A program made the position numbers and the translations under genes. A DNA stretch of 35,989 nucleotides from a virus. Taxonomy: Duplodnaviria > Caudoviricetes. The stretch is from the IMG/VR virus record IMGVR_UViG_3300010398_000022, positions 1 through 35,989 of that record. The stretch is one strand, 5' to 3'. Shown piece by piece: positions 10,060 to 35,479 of this stretch (position 1 is the stretch's first letter; every line of letters begins with the position of its first letter). The notes under the pieces are model-generated. The model was not told where the DNA came from. It did no database searches and saw only the letters and a list, made by a program, of their open reading frames with translations.

Positions 10060-13000
10060 TTACATCAAGGCACCTATATCCAACTCCAACAATTTCTTAT
10101 TGATTACTTTTATCAATTCTCTTGAATCTAGATTTATGACTGTTGGCTCTCTAAGCTCTACAATTATACGTCTACCTCCTCCTCCAGCTCCTCCTGGCAA
10201 TACTACTCCTGGTGTTAATATTGTGCCTCTTGTTTCTGTTGTAAATGTTGCTGATCCTGGTATTCCACCTAATACTGTGGCTGCTGTTGCTGTTGCTGGT
10301 GCTGGTATTGTTCGTTGAACTACTGTTCTATGTTCAATTATGTTGATAGTTACTGTTTTAGATGAAGGTATGCTGTTGATTGAATTAATAAGAGATTGAA
10401 CCTGGCTTCTGGCTGAACTTGCTGCTGAGCCTATATTGTTCATGGCACTTGCCACCCTATTCAAGGATGATATCATGTTGTTAGAATTAGAACTTACATT
10501 ACTTGCTAAGCTGTTCATTGCTGTTCCAGCATTTCTAGTGCCTGTGTTGAAATCATTAGTTAGGGCTGTTGCTGCTGCATTGAAAGCTTTGATCCAATTT
10601 GCTGTATTGCCATTGATGTTTGTTGACAGGCCATTCATAACAGTGCCTACTGCTTTGGTTGCTGCATTGAAACTGGTAACTAGAGCAGTGGTGGCTGTAG
10701 TCCAGTCTTTTATCCAGGTTGCTATGTTACCATTTATGTTTACAGTGAGAGAGTTCATGGCAACACCAGCATTCTTGGTTGCTGTGTTGAATGCTAAGGT
10801 GAAGGCTGTGGCTATCTGGCCTAATGCTGTTATGATGTTAACAAAGGCAGTTGCTATGTTTTGTTGAAGAGTAAGCATTGCCGCAGTGGCATCACCCATT
10901 CCTTTCTGGAAGGCTAGACCAAATGCACTAGAAAGTTGGCCTAATGCTGTAATTATGTTTACAAAGGCAGTCGCAGCATTGGTTTGTAAAGTTACAAATG
11001 CAACACCAGCATCACCCACTGCCTTCTGAAATCCTAATTGGAATGCACTAGCGACTTGACCTAATGCTGTAATTATATTTAGAAAGGCAGTTGCTGCGTT
11101 AGTCTGAAGGGTTATGAATGCTCCTGATGCATCTGCTATGCCTCTAGCAAAGCCCTGATTAATTCCTGCTGCTACTAAAGCCACTTCTTGTATAATTTGG
11201 GTGAAAACTGTTGCTGCTGTTTGGCCTAGTGTTTGCATAGCTCTGTTGGCAATGTTGAGAGCTGCTGTTAGTTTGTTGATCTCTTCTGGGTTGCTTCCAG
11301 CTGGAATTTGAATAATATTAGGTCCTCCACCTCCTGGGCCTTTTGCCAGTGCTGGTTGACCACTTAACAAACCCTGTATAAATTTGGCTGCACCTTGCAA
11401 GCCTGCGATAATTTTATCTCCTATTGTTTTACCAATATCCCCAATGTTTTTTGGAATGTCTAGAATTGGTTGAACAATAAAGTTCCTAACCTTCTCTGCT
11501 ATCTGACTCCAACCTTTTTCTACAGCATTAACTATTCCCTGGCCTACTGCTCCTAATGCTGCTGGTATATTCTTTAGTGGATTAGTCATGAATTGCGTTA
11601 CTGAATTGGCTATCTGAGTCCATCCAGTTACAACAGCACTGACAATAGATTGGCCTACTGAAGAAAGAGCTGATGGTATCTTTAGTATTGGATTTATGAA
11701 AAAGGTCTGAACTGAACTAGTTAATTGAGTCCATCCTGTTACAACAGCCTGAACTATAGCCTGTCCAACACCACTTAATGCTGATGCTATCTTTAGAATT
11801 GGATTTATGAAGAATGTTTGAACTGATGCTGCTACCTGTGTCCAACCTGTAACCACTGCTGTAACTATGGATTGCCCAACAGAAGATACAGCTGAAGCTA
11901 CCAGCAATATTGGATTTATGATATAAGTCTGGACTAGACTTGCGAACTGTGTCCAACCTGTAACCACTGCTGTAACTATAGCCTGACCTACTGAGGCAAC
12001 TGCTGATGCTACTAGTAGAATTGGATTTATAATGTAAGTTTGAACTAGACTTGTAAATTGAGTCCATCCTGTTACAACAGCATTAACTATGGATTGACCT
12101 ACTCCTGCTACTGCTGTAGCAACTAAAAGTATAGGATTTATGATATAAGTTTGCACTAGACCAGCAACAGGTGCTAATGCCTTTCCTAGTGCTGTTACTA
12201 ATTCATTGAATTTGGCTGTTGTTTCAGGAAATGCTTTAGCTAGCTCTGCTGGTATTTGTAGAAATATCTTGCCTACCTCTGCTAGCCATTTACCTGCTGC
12301 TGATTGACCATTTGAGGTGAATAAGCCTTCTATAGCACTAAACGCAGCTAGTAAGGCTCCTGGTGCAGCTGCTGCTAATTGGCCTAGACCTGTTGCTAGT
12401 TGCTGGCCTAGTTTAGTTGCAAATGGAACCACTGTGCTAGAAAACCAGGAATTAAATGCACCTGCTGCCTTGGCTAATTCACCAGGAGCATTTTCAACAA
12501 AATAGGTTATTCCACTTAGTATCATTGCTCCAAGTTTATCTGCAAATTGTTTTGCTGGTCCTGTGATAAACTGTGTTAAACTATTACCAAGATCTACCAG
12601 GTTATGTATTGCTACCTCTATGGCTTTCTGGAAATTACCCTTGAATGCTAAATCAGCAGCTATTGTGAAGCCTCTAAAGTCTTCTGCTAGTGGCCCAAAT
12701 TCAGGGTGAAATCGCTTAATCTGTCTAACTGCCTCATCTACTGAAGTTCTAAACTGACCAAATGCTGATTGAGTTTCTCTGCCTAAACCTTGGACTGCTA
12801 GAACTGCTCCTCCAAATACTGTCTTTAATGCTCCAACAACATCACCACTTCCTAGCTGGTTTACAAATTGTTTTGCACCAGCAACAACAAAATTGAATGC
12901 TCCTACAACATCATCCTTGATTTTGTTTATTGCTGGAGTTACTGCCTTTGCTAGACCTTCAAAGCTTTTTTGTATACCACCTAATGAGTCTCTGATTTGT

Positions 13001-16507: not shown

Positions 16508-17013
16508 TGGTATTACTATATCCAGATGAGTTAATCTATAATTATTTGAGATCATTATACACACCCTATCGCAATGCTTTGCCTGACCCTACTGTTTTGC
16601 CACTAGAAACTGATATTATGTGGAATTTCTTTGCTGGTGGGGTTAAAGACACTTCATTCATAGTGGCTGAAGACTATCAGCAGCCTGAGAGATTCAATTT
16701 AGGTGCTAGTGCTGCTAATTGGAAAGCTTCCTCAACCATTTATGTTATAACATTATGGACTAAGGAAGGTAAGCCACAATATTTGAAAGAATTTGCTAAT
16801 TTCTTAGAAAAGAAGTTGGTGGTTGTTGGTGGGTTGTCTTCTACATTGGCTATAACAGGTTTAAATGATTTGAAAGTTACACAGTTTTCTCTAAGTCAGG
16901 GCTTGAATAATTTTCATGGTTATGGCACCTTTAGCAATATACAAAATCCTGAAACAGATTGGTGGGTGTTGTCTGTTAATGTTCAGACAAGATATTTGAA
17001 GCCTGCTAACTAA
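16507..17013 (+). CDS. Putative tail terminator/neck protein
   Basis: 168 aa, coupled to the adaptor; alpha/beta pattern (IYVITLWT..EFANFLEKKL..WWVLSVNVQ) resembling tail terminators. Confidence 0.45.
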   Translation: MVLLYPDELIYNYLRSLYTPYRNALPDPTVLPLETDIMWNFFAGGVKDTSFIVAEDYQQPERFNLGASAANWKASSTIYVITLWTKEGKPQYLKEFANFLEKKLVVVGGLSSTLAITGLNDLKVTQFSLSQGLNNFHGYGTFSNIQNPETDWWVLSVNVQTRYLKPAN

Positions 17014-26544: not shown

Positions 26545-28662
26545 TTACCTTTTATGATAAATATCGTCTGCTAGTTTAACTAAATCAAGTATGCGCACTA
26601 TTTTCTTAACTCTGGCTGTTCTTATTATCTTGCTATAACGTTTTACTTGTATTCTTGGTGCTATTTCTGATATCTTTACAGTTTCCAAGAGAAAGCGTTG
26701 AACATCTTTGCTGACTGTTGTAACATAACGTAATTCCTGAGCTAGAATGCTTACACTGGGTCTTGGTGGGCGTTTAGCTGGTGGGAATGTGTTTGGGCCT
26801 ACTCCTGTTACTTGGTCTTGAATTGTTGTGGTTTCTGCTAGAGTTCTAATCTTTTTGGCTAATCTTGTTAGGGTTGATATTGCATTAGCTGTGTTAGTTG
26901 CAGTTCTTACTATGCCTCGTATTTTGGTTACTGTTGAGCTTATGGTTACTGACTCTGGGGTTAGTGCACGATTCTTTGATGCTATTTTTGATAATGTGCT
27001 TGGTGTTAGTGATATCGTTTCTGCTAGTAAACGAATTTTGGTTTGTGTTCTCGTAACTGTTGAGGCTATTGTGATAGTTTCAGTGAGGCTTTTGAATATG
27101 TTATGAGCTCCTGCTTTTGTTGCTGTTACAGCATCTGCTACAGTTGCAGTTTGAGTTAATGTTCTAATCTTTTGGGCTAATCTAGCAACTGTTGAGGCTA
27201 TTGTAATGGTTTCTGTTAGGCTTTTTACTGCTCCCTTGATTCTGGCTACTGTTGAGCTGATTGTTATTGAATCAGTAGCACTTCTGGTTTTTGCTGATAG
27301 TCTTGCTGGTATTGCTGCGCTGGTAATTGTTTCAGTTAATGTTCTAGTTTTGTTTCTTAGCAGGTTTAGTGAGGCTGTGGTTATTGTTACAGTTTCAGTT
27401 AGGCTTTTTGATATTGCTCTAGCTCCTAGAATTCTTGATACAGCATCTGTTATGCTAATTGTTTGAGTTAGAGTTCTAATCTTTTGGGCTAATCTTGCAG
27501 GAGTGCTGCTTATTGTTATGGTTTCAGTTATAGTTCGAATTTTGGCTACTAACCTAACTACTGTTGAAGAAATGGTGACTGTTTCGGTTAGTGCTTTAAC
27601 AGCTCCTTTTGATTTGGTGACTGTTGAGCTAATAGTGACTGTTTGTGATAAAGACCTGGTTAATGTTGATAATCTTGTAGGAATTGAAGAAATTGTGATA
27701 GTTTCAGTGATTGTTCTTATTTTGTTTCGTAATAATGGGCCTAAGCTATCTGATATTGCTATAGTTTGAGTTAAAGTTCGAATTATGCCCTTAGATTTGA
27801 CTACTGCATCAGTGATGGCTATCGTTTGAGTTATTGTTTTAACAATTCCTCTAGATCTTGCTACTGTTGAGCTTATTGTAACAGTTTCAGTGAGTATTCT
27901 GACATTTGCTTTCAGTCTTCCTACGGTTGAACTAATGGTTACTGTCTCTGTTAGGCTTCTAATCTTGGCTGTTAGTCTGCCTGGTGTTGATGAAATCGTT
28001 ATTGTTGTGGTTATTGTTCTTATTTTGTTTCGAAGTATAGCTAAACTCGCTGTTGAGGTAGTTACAGTTTCGGTCAAGGCTTTAACTGAGCCTTTTACTC
28101 TTGCTACAGTTGATGATATTGTAACTGTTTCAGCTGCTAATGCTCTGGCTTTAGTTGCTAGTCTTGTTACAGGTGAAGATATGGTTATTGTTGTTGTTAT
28201 TGTTCTAATCTTGTTGCGTAGCATGGCTAGACTTGCTGTTGCTATGGTTACTGTTTCTGTTAATGCCTTGACTGAGCCTTTTATTCGTGCTACTGTTGAG
28301 GAAATAGTTACAGTTTCAGTGGCTAATGGTCGTTGTTTAGCTGCTAGTCTTGTTAGAGGTGAAGATATGGTGACTGTTTCAGTTACTGTCCTGTTTTTGG
28401 CTGCTAATCTTGTTGGGCTTGATGCATCAGAGACAGCAACAGTTTCAGTTAATGATTTTACTACATTGTTGACTGCTGCTGGTGCCTGAATTATATACCA
28501 TAAATCATAGATTTCATCATATGCATCAATTCTAGCAATATCTTGATTGATTGATGCCATTACAGGAGCAGTTACAACAGAGGAAATGTTGGTAGTTACA
28601 CTGCATGAAGTGGGATAGCTATTAACAGCACATAAGGCCATTGTTACTGTTGTAGCTACCAT
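26545..28662 (-). CDS. Thr-rich, basic ~19-aa repeat protein (putative fibre/stalk)
   Basis: 705 aa with roughly 29 copies of (K/R)xLTETVTISSTVxR. Confidence 0.75.
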   Translation of the reverse strand: MVATTVTMALCAVNSYPTSCSVTTNISSVVTAPVMASINQDIARIDAYDEIYDLWYIIQAPAAVNNVVKSLTETVAVSDASSPTRLAAKNRTVTETVTISSPLTRLAAKQRPLATETVTISSTVARIKGSVKALTETVTIATASLAMLRNKIRTITTTITISSPVTRLATKARALAAETVTISSTVARVKGSVKALTETVTTSTASLAILRNKIRTITTTITISSTPGRLTAKIRSLTETVTISSTVGRLKANVRILTETVTISSTVARSRGIVKTITQTIAITDAVVKSKGIIRTLTQTIAISDSLGPLLRNKIRTITETITISSIPTRLSTLTRSLSQTVTISSTVTKSKGAVKALTETVTISSTVVRLVAKIRTITETITISSTPARLAQKIRTLTQTISITDAVSRILGARAISKSLTETVTITTASLNLLRNKTRTLTETITSAAIPARLSAKTRSATDSITISSTVARIKGAVKSLTETITIASTVARLAQKIRTLTQTATVADAVTATKAGAHNIFKSLTETITIASTVTRTQTKIRLLAETISLTPSTLSKIASKNRALTPESVTISSTVTKIRGIVRTATNTANAISTLTRLAKKIRTLAETTTIQDQVTGVGPNTFPPAKRPPRPSVSILAQELRYVTTVSKDVQRFLLETVKISEIAPRIQVKRYSKIIRTARVKKIVRILDLVKLADDIYHKR
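26800..28465 (-). repeat. ~57-bp degenerate coding tandem repeat
   Basis: Recurring GTTACAGTTTCAG/ACTGTTGAG-like motifs on the + strand, encoding TETVTISSTV. Confidence 0.8.
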
Positions 28663-29941: not shown

Positions 29942-30382
29942 TTAAACAAAGACCAATGTTACAGTGCCAGCTCCTAATCTTTGGTCTACCTTTTGTTGTG
30001 CTGTATTCTTTTGTGCTTGTGTTAGATTTAGATTTCCAATTGTAACTGTTAGAGTTCTATTTGGAAATGTGCCATTCCATTGATATGAATAAGGCACATC
30101 ATCACGCCAGTCTACTTGTCCCTTGCTATCTGGTGCTTTTCCTACTATTGTTGGAAAATTTTCTAATAGAGTGCTAACACTGTATGATTGTTTTTGATGT
30201 TCTTCTAAGAGTTTATCATGGTGTTGTTGAATGTTAGCTGTGTTTGCTGCTGGGTGCTGACTACAGCGTTGTTTTATGTTTGTAGCTGTGTGTGGTCTGG
30301 TGCTACCTAAGTCTAAATCCCATTGATATTCGATAATACATCCACAAGGTGCAGTCCATGTTGTTTGCTGTATGTTAACCAG
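29942..30382 (-). CDS. 146-aa protein with non-canonical start (CTG, or ATA at 30373); CxC...CxxH motif
   Basis: Not in the ORF track. The frame (M)VNIQQTTWTAPCGCIIEYQWD..QRCSQHP..LGAGTVTLVFV fills the gap exactly and ends 3 nt before the next ATG. In-frame stops lie just upstream. Confidence 0.7.
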   Translation of the reverse strand: MVNIQQTTWTAPCGCIIEYQWDLDLGSTRPHTATNIKQRCSQHPAANTANIQQHHDKLLEEHQKQSYSVSTLLENFPTIVGKAPDSKGQVDWRDDVPYSYQWNGTFPNRTLTVTIGNLNLTQAQKNTAQQKVDQRLGAGTVTLVFV

Positions 30383-32859: not shown

Positions 32860-33144
32860 TTATGTTGCAACCTCTTGTTTAGTTGAACTGCGTTGAACTG
32901 TTCCCATCATCTTTGAATCGCATTCTTCACACCTTAAAGAAATATTCTTAGAACCTGTGTTTGGGTCTATTGGGTGGTAAGGCAATTGTGTGAAATATAT
33001 CTTTACACCACATCTTACACAAGCTGTTTCTCCAGATTCAGTATGAGCAGGATTATCAATACAGTGTTCATTCCATTCTACAACACTTTCTGTTTCAAAG
33101 TCATGAGCTGAGCATTTGAATGCTCCACCTTCTACGAAAGCCAT
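32860..33144 (-). CDS. Zinc-binding protein
   Basis: 94 aa with CSAH..HC..H, CVRC and CEEC. Confidence 0.7.
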   Translation of the reverse strand: MAFVEGGAFKCSAHDFETESVVEWNEHCIDNPAHTESGETACVRCGVKIYFTQLPYHPIDPNTGSKNISLRCEECDSKMMGTVQRSSTKQEVAT

Positions 33145-33170
33145 TTAATAACTAACAATAATGTCTATTA

Positions 33171-33183
33171 ATTGTGAGAACTA
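33171..33183 (-). promoter_or_regulatory. Late-promoter-like motif TAGTTCTCACAAT
   Basis: Begins 39 nt upstream of ATG 33144, the first gene of the 11-kb block. Confidence 0.6.
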
Positions 33184-33193
33184 AGAATAGTAT

Positions 33194-33316
33194 GCAACGG
33201 GAAACCGTGCCGCCAGAACAGAATGTCCTCGGTCATGGCAAGAGCTTTTTCGGTGATACTGTCGGTCACTGTTTTGTGCTCTCATGTGGTCTTGGTGGGG
33301 AGACCTGCCAATGACT
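33194..33316 (+). ncRNA. Candidate structured RNA: GAAA-tetraloop hairpin plus three-way junction
   Basis: ACGG-GAAA-CCGT hairpin; P1 GTCATGGCA/TGCCA-A-TGAC; P2 AGAGC..CGGTGA/TCACTG..GCTCT; P3 GGTCT/AGACC. G-U pairs favour the + strand. Confidence 0.45.
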
Positions 33317-33427
33317 CCCAAGCGGTGTGCTAATTGTGGTGGCAGATTAGTAAATGAATACAGAAGTGGTGGCCATGATTATGTTCATAAAGTTATTTGT
33401 GTGAAATGTAATCAAACTTGTGAGTAG
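33311..33427 (+). CDS. 38-aa zinc-ribbon microprotein MTPKRCANCGGRLVNEYRSGGHDYVHKVICVKCNQTCE
   Basis: CANC...CVKC knuckle pair; manual translation. Confidence 0.65.
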   Translation: MTPKRCANCGGRLVNEYRSGGHDYVHKVICVKCNQTCE

Positions 33428-33438
33428 ATTTGGCCTGG

Positions 33439-33458
33439 TCTTGGTGGGTCTACCAAGA
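33439..33458. terminator. Hairpin between convergent genes
   Basis: TCTTGGT-GGGTCT-ACCAAGA between stops at 33427(+) and 33464(-). Confidence 0.4.
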
Positions 33459-33463
33459 GAGAT

Positions 33464-35479
33464 TTAAATCTCATCTAGTTTCTTCAATATCTTTGGCATT
33501 AGCTGCTCCATTAGTGTAAGGCGTTGCTTGTCTTCTTTCTGTTCTTGTTCTAATCTGCGTTTTATTACTGAAGGCACAAATTCTAATTGTTCAGCTATTT
33601 CTATTGGTATTGAGTCTTGTAATTGCAAAGATGCAGCTTTAGGTGATACTTTCAGGGTGTCTTTTAGGTTCTTGGTTACATCACCTTCAAATCCTGTTGC
33701 TGGTCCACCAGTGTTAGGTGTTGGGTTGTTATCCATCATTGCTGCTCTAACATCTACTATCTTTTGTCTTAATCCAAATTGTGCTTCCTGGAATGCTTGC
33801 TTGTCTAGCTGTCTTTGTTGATAGTCTGGTATGTCCTCATCTAGACCAACACCCTTCAACACACGTTCACCTCCAATTGGGCCAGCTCCATTGTTGAATA
33901 AAATCATGTAAGCTTTGACTTTATCCAAAAAGACATCAAGATTAACTGGGTCAAATACAACCTTAATTTTCCATCTTAATCTGCTTACCTTTATTTCTCC
34001 TGTTATTGGGTCTATAGCACCATCAAATAGCCCAAAGGCTTCTGGCTGTTGTTGTGGTTCTTGTCCTGGTTGATTAGGTTGTTGTTGTTGAGGTGGCAAT
34101 GTATGCTGTATCTCTGTCTTTCTGGCTGGGGTTTTACTTGTTGGGTCATTGGCGAATGTATCAGTGACATTTACTCTGGGTGTTGGTGGTGGTGGAATTT
34201 CAGGTTGAATAGTAAGCTGTTCTTCTGGTGGCACAAAGCCCTCTCCGGGTTCATCTATTATGCCTTTTTGGTCATTGTCTATCAATGTCTTTAAAATGGG
34301 GTCTATCCATTGTTCTTGAATTATGTCAGCTAGCCAGTTTTGGTATGGTTGCAACACGAAAACATTCCAGGCTTCCATCAGTTCTTGGCTGGTGGCTCTG
34401 TTCATAACATCAGGATTGTATAGCAGTTCAGGCATCTGCAATTGTCTAATTATTTCTAGGTTGTTTTGTGAACGTTCAGATGTCATTTCCTGCAAGCTTA
34501 CATTAATAACTACTGGATCTATGTTCACCTGTTGATTAGTGACTATAGCATTACCTGCTCCATTAGCTACATCATCCTGTAGTTTGTTCATTATCGTTTG
34601 GTTTACATTGTTGGGCATCTTGATTAGCAGCATTGGACTCCATAATCGAAAGTTGGTTTCTGGTAGGTTACGCTGGTTTATCACTCGGTTCGTTTCTGAC
34701 AGCGAAATTATTTTTTCAAATAGAGAATAGCCATAATGATATGTCCCTGGGGACATGTGATAATTTCTTAGAGCAACATAAAAGATATCTTCAGACTTTA
34801 AGATTGACTGTGGGAATTTGTAGTCAAGATATTCAAGACCTATTAACTGCCAACTGCGTTTATCGACGAATCTTCGGCCTAAAGACATAGCTGGCAATAT
34901 TTTTAGAGCCATAGGCAGGCTAGTCTTTGGGTCTCTTTCAATAATTGCAGCATCTGATCCAAAGACTGCAGCCTGAATGAACAGTGCTTTGAAGTTGGTA
35001 GTAGCTTTAACGTCTTTGTTTATTATATCAATTTCACGTTTGAAGCTCTTCAGCTTTGGGTTGTTCTTCAGGGCATCTAAAGTGGCTTTGCGTTCATCAG
35101 AGCTATCAAATTCATCATTTACGTCTATGACTGTTCTAAAATGATCTCCTAATATTGATTGAGCTAACACTTCTATGGCCATACTGGTTATGCCATCTTC
35201 TCTCCAGCTTTCATGATATCTTATCAGTTCTTCAAAGCTGTAAGTTGGCTTGAATGCTGCTGATACATTTGGACCTAAAATGCGTTTAATGTCTTTATCA
35301 TCAACAGCAGGCAGGTCTTTGCCATTGCCACTGCCTGTGTCTATTAATTGTGAGAAAAATGCTGATCTGTCAGCTACAAGACCAGCATTACGCATAGAAA
35401 TAATTGAATAAGTAATATCTGGTATGGGTTTTCTTTCAGTTTCTAGGCGTTTAACAAAAGCCTCTTCTTTAACTGTCAC
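33464..35479 (-). CDS. Portal protein
   Basis: 671 aa, GTG start. DGITSMAIEVLAQSILG, LFIQAAVFG, LKILP, EDIFYV..YGYSLFE, IIRQLQMPELL and NRATS..VLQPYQ follow the portal motif order. Confidence 0.85.
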   Translation of the reverse strand: MTVKEEAFVKRLETERKPIPDITYSIISMRNAGLVADRSAFFSQLIDTGSGNGKDLPAVDDKDIKRILGPNVSAAFKPTYSFEELIRYHESWREDGITSMAIEVLAQSILGDHFRTVIDVNDEFDSSDERKATLDALKNNPKLKSFKREIDIINKDVKATTNFKALFIQAAVFGSDAAIIERDPKTSLPMALKILPAMSLGRRFVDKRSWQLIGLEYLDYKFPQSILKSEDIFYVALRNYHMSPGTYHYGYSLFEKIISLSETNRVINQRNLPETNFRLWSPMLLIKMPNNVNQTIMNKLQDDVANGAGNAIVTNQQVNIDPVVINVSLQEMTSERSQNNLEIIRQLQMPELLYNPDVMNRATSQELMEAWNVFVLQPYQNWLADIIQEQWIDPILKTLIDNDQKGIIDEPGEGFVPPEEQLTIQPEIPPPPTPRVNVTDTFANDPTSKTPARKTEIQHTLPPQQQQPNQPGQEPQQQPEAFGLFDGAIDPITGEIKVSRLRWKIKVVFDPVNLDVFLDKVKAYMILFNNGAGPIGGERVLKGVGLDEDIPDYQQRQLDKQAFQEAQFGLRQKIVDVRAAMMDNNPTPNTGGPATGFEGDVTKNLKDTLKVSPKAASLQLQDSIPIEIAEQLEFVPSVIKRRLEQEQKEDKQRLTLMEQLMPKILKKLDEI

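What the first reader, a model, noticed from the sequence alone, without database searches (positions are those of the whole stretch)
33194..33316. Candidate three-way-junction RNA next to the portal gene
Seen: a GNRA hairpin (33194-33210), then P1 33232-33240/33306-33315, P2 33241-33282 with a U-rich internal loop, and P3 33288-33305. Junction linkers are 0/5/0 nt. Four G-U pairs favour the + strand, and the stretch is CpG-rich unlike its surroundings. P1 sequesters the ATG of the Zn-ribbon ORF. Inference: either a cis-regulatory leader or switch for that ORF, or a trans-acting RNA reminiscent of phi29 pRNA (a three-way-junction packaging RNA). The pRNA analogy is speculative.
Basis: partly seen in the sequence, partly recalled or inferred. 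Interest (0 to 1): 0.75.

Follow-up and report, generated by a model that had tools for sequence, protein, structure and literature searches.

The report
Variable hairpin insert in archaeal virus
This GC-rich stretch is a small insert, missing from most relatives, in a swap-in gene slot of a virus that likely infects soil ammonia-oxidising archaea; it is predicted to fold into simple hairpins rather than a three-way junction, and likely acts as a short leader reading frame that would unlock the tiny zinc-finger-like gene behind it, so it is not a DNA-packaging RNA.

Summary
It wins only when the sequence is cut to 33232-33315; in the five longer contexts tried it has probability 0.00-0.39 and loses to a 12-pair hairpin (33288-33316) that also buries the zinc-ribbon ATG. 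There are three G-U pairs, not four. No Rfam match. The stretch is a 117-base insert in a variable slot between the portal gene and a conserved 94-aa gene: 0 of 7 related records hold it (they carry unrelated small ORFs behind the same TATA-like promoter), one related contig runs from the promoter straight into the zinc-ribbon gene, and one holds a diverged copy in which no compensatory change is visible. The virus family packages with a terminase, so the phi29 pRNA analogy fails. The insert is also a 40-codon frame that starts where relatives' slot genes start and ends in an ATGA overlap with the zinc-ribbon gene; the diverged copy keeps the frame. Best reading (0.4): a translated leader coupling expression of the zinc-ribbon gene. 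Rivals: decaying insert (0.28), non-coding structured leader or small RNA (0.22). Expression is untested.

The parts
33194..33310 (+). 117-base GC-rich insert between the slot promoter and the zinc-ribbon ORF; the finding itself
   Evidence: A contig in run X1 matches the window to 33193 and goes on with a homologue of the zinc-ribbon start; absent from L001, L004-L009; diverged copy in run X2
33192..33314 (+). 40-codon open frame (ATG 33192 to TGA 33314) that overlaps the zinc-ribbon start by 4 bases (ATGA); candidate translated leader
   Evidence: ATG lies 19 bases after the conserved motif, relatives' slot genes start 21-24 after it; indel clusters in the X2 copy are -6 and +9; no homologue
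33164..33171 (.). TATA-like box, near-palindromic, likely shared by the + slot transcript and the - strand 94-aa gene; one base off the relatives' version and without their upstream purine run
   Evidence: alignment of slot starts; promoter function inferred from archaeal promoter anatomy (PMC7289017 passages)
33173..33184 (.). 12-base motif conserved in the window and all 7 related records
33194..33210 (+). GAAA-tetraloop hairpin, 6 pairs; both outer pairs broken in the X2 copy, 4 inner pairs unchanged
33232..33240 (+).
33241..33282 (+). P2 hairpin, 12 pairs with U-rich internal loop; inner stem is followed by a T run; remodelled (+9 bases) in the X2 copy
33288..33316 (+).
33311..33427 (+). 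38-aa ORF with two CxxC pairs (zinc-ribbon-like)
   Evidence: codon use like resident genes; language-model recognition 2535, first hit 0.93; homologous start in the X1 contig; no Pfam family over cut-off
33436..33461 (+). Hairpin H2 after the zinc-ribbon ORF; likely homologous to H1 (13-base exact repeat, 22 of 30 aligned columns identical)
   Evidence: 3 of 3000 shuffles of the slot give a 13-base repeat; 12 of 219 real tiles do
32860..33144 (-). Conserved 94-aa Cys/His-rich gene, left border of the slot
   Evidence: 25 homologues, alignment A2
33464..35479 (-). Portal gene, right border of the slot
   Evidence: 84 homologues, many with PF04860; P0070 and P0031 match PF04860 below cut-off; the window's own protein has no Pfam hit

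Best explanation
The stretch is a 117-base insert in a variable small-gene slot of a tailed virus that likely infects soil ammonia-oxidising archaea, and it likely works as a short translated leader whose ribosomes would open the predicted hairpin over the start codon of the zinc-ribbon gene behind it. Shown: the slot is variable, the insert is missing in most relatives, the 40-codon frame starts near where relatives' slot genes start and ends in an ATGA overlap. Predicted: hairpin H1 (33288-33316) pairs the zinc-ribbon start codon in every context tried. Inferred: the TATA-like box gives a leaderless transcript from about 33192; a ribosome starts at that ATG, unwinds the hairpins, stops at the overlapping TGA and restarts on the zinc-ribbon ATG (termination-reinitiation); the peptide's own sequence matters little; H2 marks the 3' end. 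It is a two-gene version of a one-gene cassette, as L005/L006 (74-aa gene in front of a 71-aa gene) is to L001/L008/L009 (71-aa gene alone).
For: Slot anatomy in 7 records, 4 distinct contents, all behind the same motif. One contig goes from the promoter directly into a zinc-ribbon homologue, the same one-gene/two-gene contrast as L001 against L005. ATG 19 bases after the motif against 21, 22 and 24 in relatives. ATGA overlap; 2 of 23 neighbouring - strand gene pairs of the window also overlap by 4. In the X2 copy no change is listed at the ATG, and all 19 gap letters are seen: +4 outside the frame, -6 and +9 inside it, so the frame is kept overall (1 in 3 by chance on the net change, 1 in 9 for both clusters). 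The G of the ATG is paired with probability 0.98-1.0 in 7 of 7 contexts. ATGA overlaps and opening of a paired start region by upstream translation are established coupling mechanisms in archaea and bacteria (PMC6728339, passages).
Against: A 39-codon open stretch arises in 29% of dinucleotide shuffles, and 3 of the 6 frames are stop-free. The frame has the poorest codon fit of the 39 listed ORFs of the window (-0.29; GC3 0.49 against 0.17-0.43), whereas relatives' slot genes score -0.06 to 0.15. Language-model recognition 1270 is below the level of most known proteins. No true homologue: 14 hits among 1.84 billion were multi-stretch matches, and the 9 of 14 that I read were repeat proteins; neither small ORF is in the called-protein collection. 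Of the 6 substitutions seen inside the frame in X2, 1 is at a third position against 17 of 28 in flanking genes (Fisher p 0.08), so there is no sign of selection on the peptide. The X2 indels are drawn as several small gaps, so short out-of-frame stretches cannot be excluded. The ATG is 2-5 bases nearer the promoter than in relatives and may fall at or before the transcript start; the window's TATA box differs by one base and lacks the upstream purine run. In the X1 contig the zinc-ribbon homologue has no ATG at the matching place. Nothing shows transcription or translation.
Confidence: 0.4

Rival explanations
1. The insert is a neutral or decaying piece of foreign DNA that landed in a recombination-prone slot; its hairpins follow from high GC and a local duplication of the hairpin behind the zinc-ribbon gene, and nothing in it is under selection.
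For: Absent from 7 of 7 related records. In the X2 copy the seen changes respect neither the peptide (5 of 6 change a residue) nor the helices (2 of 6 GNRA pairs broken, P2 inner stem remodelled, no compensatory change seen). CpG level equals that of related viruses, as for recently moved DNA. H1 and H2 share a 13-base repeat. Folding scores like these occur in 2-5% of ordinary tiles. The + promoter looks worn.
Against: Two versions of the insert, under 90% alike, sit at the same place in two viruses, and an identical piece (33245-33575) is in a second study, so it has persisted. The frame and ATG survive two indel clusters.
Confidence: 0.28
2. The insert is a non-coding structured leader or small RNA made from the slot promoter: a chain of hairpins (GNRA, P2, H1) that represses or attenuates the zinc-ribbon gene, with the T runs in P2 as a possible early stop, or that acts in trans as antisense to the late transcript reading through the slot.
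For: GC 0.547, top 0.17% of the genome's windows; z -3.6 for 33240-33319; two GNRA-capped hairpins; the 14-base core of the first hairpin is unchanged in X2 and the 6-base deletion falls in a linker; hairpin plus T run flagged at 33251-33271; short U runs can end archaeal transcription (PMC7289017 passages); poor protein-like scores of the frame. L004 holds an ORF-less slot with a 10-pair stem.
Against: No compensatory change among the pairs whose two sides are visible (4 unchanged, 2 broken); P2 is remodelled; no Rfam family; the 5' half is no more structured than shuffles.
Confidence: 0.22
3. The RNA is a two-state switch between the three-way junction (P1/P2/P3) and the H1 hairpin, driven by two near-identical 8-base arms competing for the start-codon strand and tipped by a ligand such as a metal ion or the zinc-ribbon protein.
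For: Both folds are within reach: junction 0.70-0.86 in the cut core, 0.15-0.39 in 33192-33345. The X2 change at 33235 makes the two arms identical and keeps nine P1 pairs by sliding the bulge, if the unseen 3' arm is unchanged (inference).
Against: Both states bury the ATG, so there is no on state for translation. Junction probability 0.00-0.03 in 4 of the 5 distinct longer end-points tried. No covariation data. The duplicate arms are explained by a local repeat.
Confidence: 0.07
4. The RNA is a prohead (packaging) RNA analogous to phi29 pRNA.
For: Lies 150 bases from the portal gene; about 120 bases long; a junction can be drawn.
Against: Not conserved in relatives whose portals are 80-85% identical; relative G001 encodes a terminase large subunit (PF03237); tailed genome of 36 kb or more with tape-measure gene, unlike the 20-kb terminal-protein genomes of phi29-like phages (PMC5066667 passages); no interlocking loops; no Rfam match.
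Confidence: 0.01

Closest known systems
Translationally coupled gene pairs with an ATGA overlap (termination-reinitiation; upstream-translation-dependent opening of a paired start region), PMC6728339
   Same: 4-base ATGA overlap; downstream start region predicted to pair with the end of the upstream frame; archaeal-type host with likely leaderless start
   Different: The upstream frame is 40 codons, has no homologues and alien codon use; coupling is not shown; it is an optional insert
Moron-like accessory cassettes in the structural region of tailed viruses (term and definition recalled, not taken from a call)
   Same: Small genes with their own promoter-like motif, on the opposite strand, between two conserved structural-region genes, different in each relative
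   Different: Archaeal TATA-type promoter probably shared with the neighbouring gene; new content appears promoter-proximal in two cases; no function known
phi29-like prohead RNA (pRNA), PMC5066667
   Same: Length near 120 bases; a three-way junction can be drawn; near a packaging gene
   Different: Not conserved among relatives, junction not the predicted fold, no interlocking loops, virus uses a terminase and is not phi29-like
Tailed viruses of soil ammonia-oxidising archaea carrying a multicopper oxidase, PMC9859776; provirus Nvie-Pro1, PMC6563490
   Same: Relative G001 has terminase, portal, tail genes and a multicopper oxidase whose best match in the phage collection is the Nitrososphaera Pro-Nvie1 record (38.5%, E 6e-69); holders of the stretch are soil metagenomes
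   Different: The window's portal has no match in the 50,697 annotated phage records; host assignment is indirect, through a relative

Membership tests
phi29-like pRNA | Encoded by a phi29-like phage (about 20 kb, terminal protein, pRNA-dependent ATPase) | tested here: not met
   36-kb partial genome with tape-measure and tail-tube genes; relative has terminase PF03237; definition from PMC5066667 passages
phi29-like pRNA | Structure conserved in all related viruses | tested here: not met
   0 of 7 related records hold it
phi29-like pRNA | Three-way junction is the fold | tested here: not met
   Predicted probability 0.00-0.39 once the 5' part is included; prediction only
phi29-like pRNA | Two complementary loops that interlock between molecules | tested here: not met
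   At most 2 complementary bases between any of the four loops
phi29-like pRNA | Binds the prohead and is needed for packaging | not testable with these tools
   Needs virus particles
Riboswitch-type cis switch | Two folds with opposite effect on expression | tested here: not met
   Junction and H1 both pair the start codon
Riboswitch-type cis switch | Covariation across homologues | tested here: inconclusive
   One diverged copy, 13 of its 28 substitutions visible; 4 pairs unchanged, 2 broken, none compensated; 3' partners of P1, P2, P3 not visible
Riboswitch-type cis switch | Ligand-dependent change | not testable with these tools
   Needs probing
Any Rfam family | Match at or near the family threshold | tested here: not met
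   No match over the finding in the window scan; in 33145-33470 only E 2.7 and 4.7, far below cut-off
HDV-like or hammerhead ribozyme; C/D box RNA | Nested double-pseudoknot descriptor; hammerhead core; C and D boxes | tested here: not met
   0 hits on both strands with my own simple descriptors, written from recall
Archaeal bulge-helix-bulge intron; miniature inverted-repeat element | Bulge-helix-bulge at the insert ends; terminal inverted repeats | tested here: not met
   One descriptor hit, not at the insert ends; 0 inverted repeats in the slot
Translationally coupled overlapping gene pair | Stop and start overlap as ATGA or TGATG | tested here: met
   TGA 33312-33314 over ATG 33311-33313
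Translationally coupled overlapping gene pair | Downstream start region paired with the upstream frame | tested here: met
   Predicted only
Translationally coupled overlapping gene pair | Upstream frame is a real, conserved gene | tested here: inconclusive
   Frame kept in one diverged copy; no homologues, poor codon fit
Translationally coupled overlapping gene pair | Downstream expression depends on upstream translation | not testable with these tools
   Needs a reporter
Moron-like accessory cassette (definition recalled) | Variable content between conserved genes, with own promoter | tested here: met
   4 distinct contents in 7 records behind one conserved motif; promoter activity inferred
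Moron-like accessory cassette (definition recalled) | Own terminator | tested here: inconclusive
   Hairpin H2 (z -1.2) has no T run; no such hairpin was looked for systematically in the relatives

The most novel reading that the evidence does not exclude
The insert is a real, undescribed regulatory RNA of viruses of ammonia-oxidising archaea: a dual-use leader that is both translated and folded, in which two near-identical arms compete for the start-codon strand and a repeated hairpin brackets the zinc-ribbon gene as a mobile cassette, so that these viruses gate and swap small genes at one promoter-proximal site by an RNA-hairpin system of their own.
Probability: 0.12. Interest if true: 0.6.

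Novelty: new member of a known kind. Interest (0 to 1): 0.2.

Why it matters
As it most likely stands it matters little: a small optional cassette in an uncultured virus, working by a known coupling mechanism or not at all. It does show a hypervariable small-gene slot beside the portal in a widespread family of likely nitrifier viruses. If the folded leader proved functional it would be a regulatory RNA in viruses of ammonia-oxidising archaea, for which my two literature searches listed no example. A packaging RNA in a terminase-type archaeal virus would have been very surprising, but the evidence is against it.

Tried and rejected
Rfam: whole window and slot alone, nothing near cut-off; no tRNA or tmRNA; no archaeal RNase P RNA. 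DNA pattern scans for further copies: 17 stretches in genome contigs, 3 and 3 in viral contigs; none extends beyond the pattern, treated as chance. blastn of the slot against annotated phages and plasmids: only E 1-4 matches. Complete distant relative G002 (portal group about 40% identical): no slot, no match. Whole record G001: only the promoter motif matches. Sequencing runs: two DNA holders, one possibly the source of the window; no RNA holder listed. The second read-laying run on a narrower stretch dropped the diverged X2 contig below the likeness limit, so 15 of its 28 substitutions stay unseen. Protein searches for the 40-aa frame and the zinc-ribbon ORF: no true homologues. L003 is identical to the window and was left out of all counts; L002, L010, L031, L035-L037 and L039 are the same record as L001; L008 and L009 have the same slot sequence as L001, and L006 the same as L005. 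Considered and dropped: HDV-like ribozyme (a 3-pair stem around a UCCUCG loop at 33223-33236 looked suggestive, but the full descriptor fails, and the X2 changes at 33226 and 33235 hit that loop and stem); intron; inverted-repeat element; origin of the insert as a copy of the portal 3' end (best local match in G001 and L007, but 7 of 60 and 2 of 150 shuffles reach the score). No structure or complex prediction was run. No host genome could be searched for the insert beyond the exact pattern. Earlier findings of the scan: nothing for this genome or look-alike sequence.

Full report
Setting. The window is part of a tailed virus: tape-measure, tail-completion and tail-tube matches and a portal gene at 33464-35479 (-) with 84 homologues, many carrying PF04860. 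The record is 35,989 bases and about 58% complete. A relative, G001 (portal 84% identical), encodes a terminase large subunit (PF03237) and a multicopper oxidase; the oxidase's best match among annotated phage records is the Nitrososphaera Pro-Nvie1 record (38.5%, E 6e-69), and a soil virus of ammonia-oxidising archaea with such an oxidase is described in PMC9859776 (passages read). Both runs that hold the stretch are soil metagenomes. The host is therefore likely a soil ammonia-oxidising archaeon; this is inferred through a relative.

The observation. The junction, however, is the best fold only for the cut-out core 33232-33315 (probability 0.70-0.86). The winner is a 12-pair hairpin, H1 (33288-33316, GAGA loop), whose 5' arm is a near-copy of the P1 5' arm. 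Both folds pair the zinc-ribbon start codon, so changing between them would not switch translation. Stability is modest: z -2.2 for the region, -3.2 for the hand-cut core, while 32 of 600 fixed tiles of the genome reach -2 and 11 reach -3. Of nine fixed 80-base windows across the region only the one holding P2 and H1 is unusual (z -3.6). GC is high (0.547; 0.17% of windows reach it). CpG is high for this genome (o/e 0.69 against 0.20) but four other places reach the same count, and relatives sit at 0.67-0.84 overall. Rfam gives nothing.

What the relatives show. Seven non-self records span the slot between the portal and the 94-aa gene (L001, L004-L009; portals 79-85% identical). All keep a 12-base motif and six keep a TATA-like box in front of it, but the content differs: a 71-aa gene (L001, L008, L009), a homologue of it (L007), a 74-aa gene plus the 71-aa gene (L005, L006), or no frame of 25 codons (L004). 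None holds the finding, nor does the rest of G001 or the complete distant relative G002. In run X1 a 253-base contig (depth 2.3) follows the window to 33193 and then goes on with a homologue of the zinc-ribbon start: the finding is an insert of about 117 bases in front of that gene. In run X2 a 243-base contig (depth 3.3) covers 33094-33329 with 28 substitutions and 19 gap letters, and another contig is identical over 33245-33575. All gap letters and 13 of the 28 substitutions are visible; those between 33245 and 33329 are not, and a second call lost the contig. Single low-depth contigs can hold errors. Inside the insert: changes at 33195 and 33210 break both outer pairs of the GNRA hairpin, its four inner pairs are unchanged; 33226 is unpaired; 33235 lies in the P1 5' arm and makes it identical to the H1 arm; 33242 and 33243 lie in the P2 5' arm with unseen partners; six bases are lost in the linker and nine gained in the P2 inner hairpin. 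No compensatory change is visible, but only six pairs can be judged.

The missed frame. The insert is also an open frame, ATG 33192 to TGA 33314, 40 codons, overlapping the zinc-ribbon ATG as ATGA. Its ATG lies 19 bases after the conserved motif; relatives' first slot genes start 21, 22 and 24 bases after it. The X2 copy shows no change at the ATG and its two indel clusters are multiples of three. Against it: 29% of shuffles are open over 39 codons and three of six frames are stop-free; codon fit is the poorest of the window's 39 listed ORFs; language-model recognition is low (1270); there is no homologue; five of six seen substitutions change a residue, and only 1 of 6 is at a third position against 17 of 28 in flanking genes (p 0.08). 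The zinc-ribbon ORF looks more like a gene: resident-type codon use, recognition 2535 with a first hit of 0.93, and a homologous start in X1, although that contig lacks an ATG at the matching place.

How it most likely works. Shown: variable slot, optional insert, frame geometry. Predicted: H1 over the start codon. Inferred: a leaderless transcript from the TATA-like box (archaeal promoter anatomy and leaderless starts, PMC7289017 passages); translation of the 40 codons opens H1; the ribosome stops on the overlapping TGA and restarts on the zinc-ribbon gene. Both the ATGA overlap and the opening of a paired start region by upstream translation are described in PMC6728339 (passages). This explains a kept frame with a drifting peptide. 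I give it 0.4. A decaying insert (0.28) explains the poor conservation at both levels and the worn promoter, and H1 may simply be a copy of the hairpin H2 behind the zinc-ribbon gene (13-base exact repeat, 22 of 30 columns; 3 of 3000 shuffles, though 12 of 219 real tiles hold such a repeat). A non-coding hairpin leader or small RNA (0.22) explains the GC content and the two tetraloop hairpins. The two-state junction switch (0.07) lacks an on state. The pRNA reading (0.01) fails four of four testable features, taken from PMC5066667 (passages).

Novelty. The sequence has no catalogued match, but its kind is known: a small optional cassette in the structural region of a tailed virus, probably a coupled gene pair. 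Literature searches for small or non-coding RNAs of ammonia-oxidising archaea or their viruses returned 0 papers and 17 papers, none on this subject among the 12 listed (listings only); a search on archaeal virus non-coding RNA (15 of 93 listed, listings only) showed nothing like it. The library lacks most subscription papers, and no supplements were read; virus tables in the supplements of PMC9859776 could bear on the host. PMC6563490 was read in passages for provirus background. An earlier scan note (e1-6480020) reports structured RNAs beside a zinc-ribbon gene in a marine archaeal-type virus, and another (e1-8011592) an empty gene slot; both are unchecked analogies and no sequence likeness was found. 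The term moron and the ribozyme, intron and box descriptors are from recall.

Verdict. Observation partly confirmed; pRNA rejected; cis role possible in a plainer form. Interest 0.2. The bolder case, a functional folded and translated leader with hairpin-bracketed cassettes, stays open at about 0.12 because only one diverged copy, half seen, was available.

Noticed in passing
L004:2066-2150: In this relative the same slot holds no frame of 25 codons but a perfect 10-pair stem (2074-2083 with 2137-2146) enclosing 53 bases; z -1.25 and -2.21 on the two strands; no Rfam match there; TATA-like box lost while the 12-base motif is kept.
   Followed up: partly
window 1-35989; G001: The 4-mer GTAC is absent from both genomes (0 occurrences); GATC is depleted in the window (o/e 0.38) but less in G001 (0.78); CpG o/e is 0.20 in the window against 0.64-0.84 in relatives, which suggests different host restriction or methylation pressure.
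   Followed up: partly
window 33162-33180 and 35338-35356: A 19-base exact repeat: the slot's promoter region recurs inside the portal coding sequence, where it encodes conserved residues; may be chance.
   Followed up: no
window 33248-33295; G001:C1:24297-24345: The insert shows colinear likeness to the portal 3' end of G001 and L007 in the same orientation, so a + transcript would be partly antisense to those portal mRNAs; not significant genome-wide (7 of 60 and 2 of 150 shuffles).
   Followed up: yes
L002:1412-5572; L036:16062-17018: Relative G001 carries a DNA methylase, an HNH endonuclease and a papain-family protease between terminase and portal, and a multicopper oxidase further upstream.
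   Followed up: partly
window 32860-33144: The 94-aa gene has invariant Cys and His residues including two CxxC pairs in 28 aligned homologues; some sources label it RNA polymerase subunit RpoP, but it has no Pfam or NCBIfam match at E 0.01.
   Followed up: partly
window 33193, run X1 record 2: The relative that lacks the insert has no ATG where the zinc-ribbon gene starts, so that copy may be a pseudogene, use another start, or be an assembly error.
   Followed up: no
window 30098-30374: A 277-base gap without a frame of 60 codons in the otherwise tightly packed late region.
   Followed up: no
window 11504-12200 and 26806-28423: 111-base repeats in the tape-measure gene and about 60-base repeats in the 705-aa gene.
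   Followed up: no
window 16657-16801: Weak Rfam U4 match (29.7 bits, cut-off 46) inside a protein-coding frame; likely chance.
   Followed up: no
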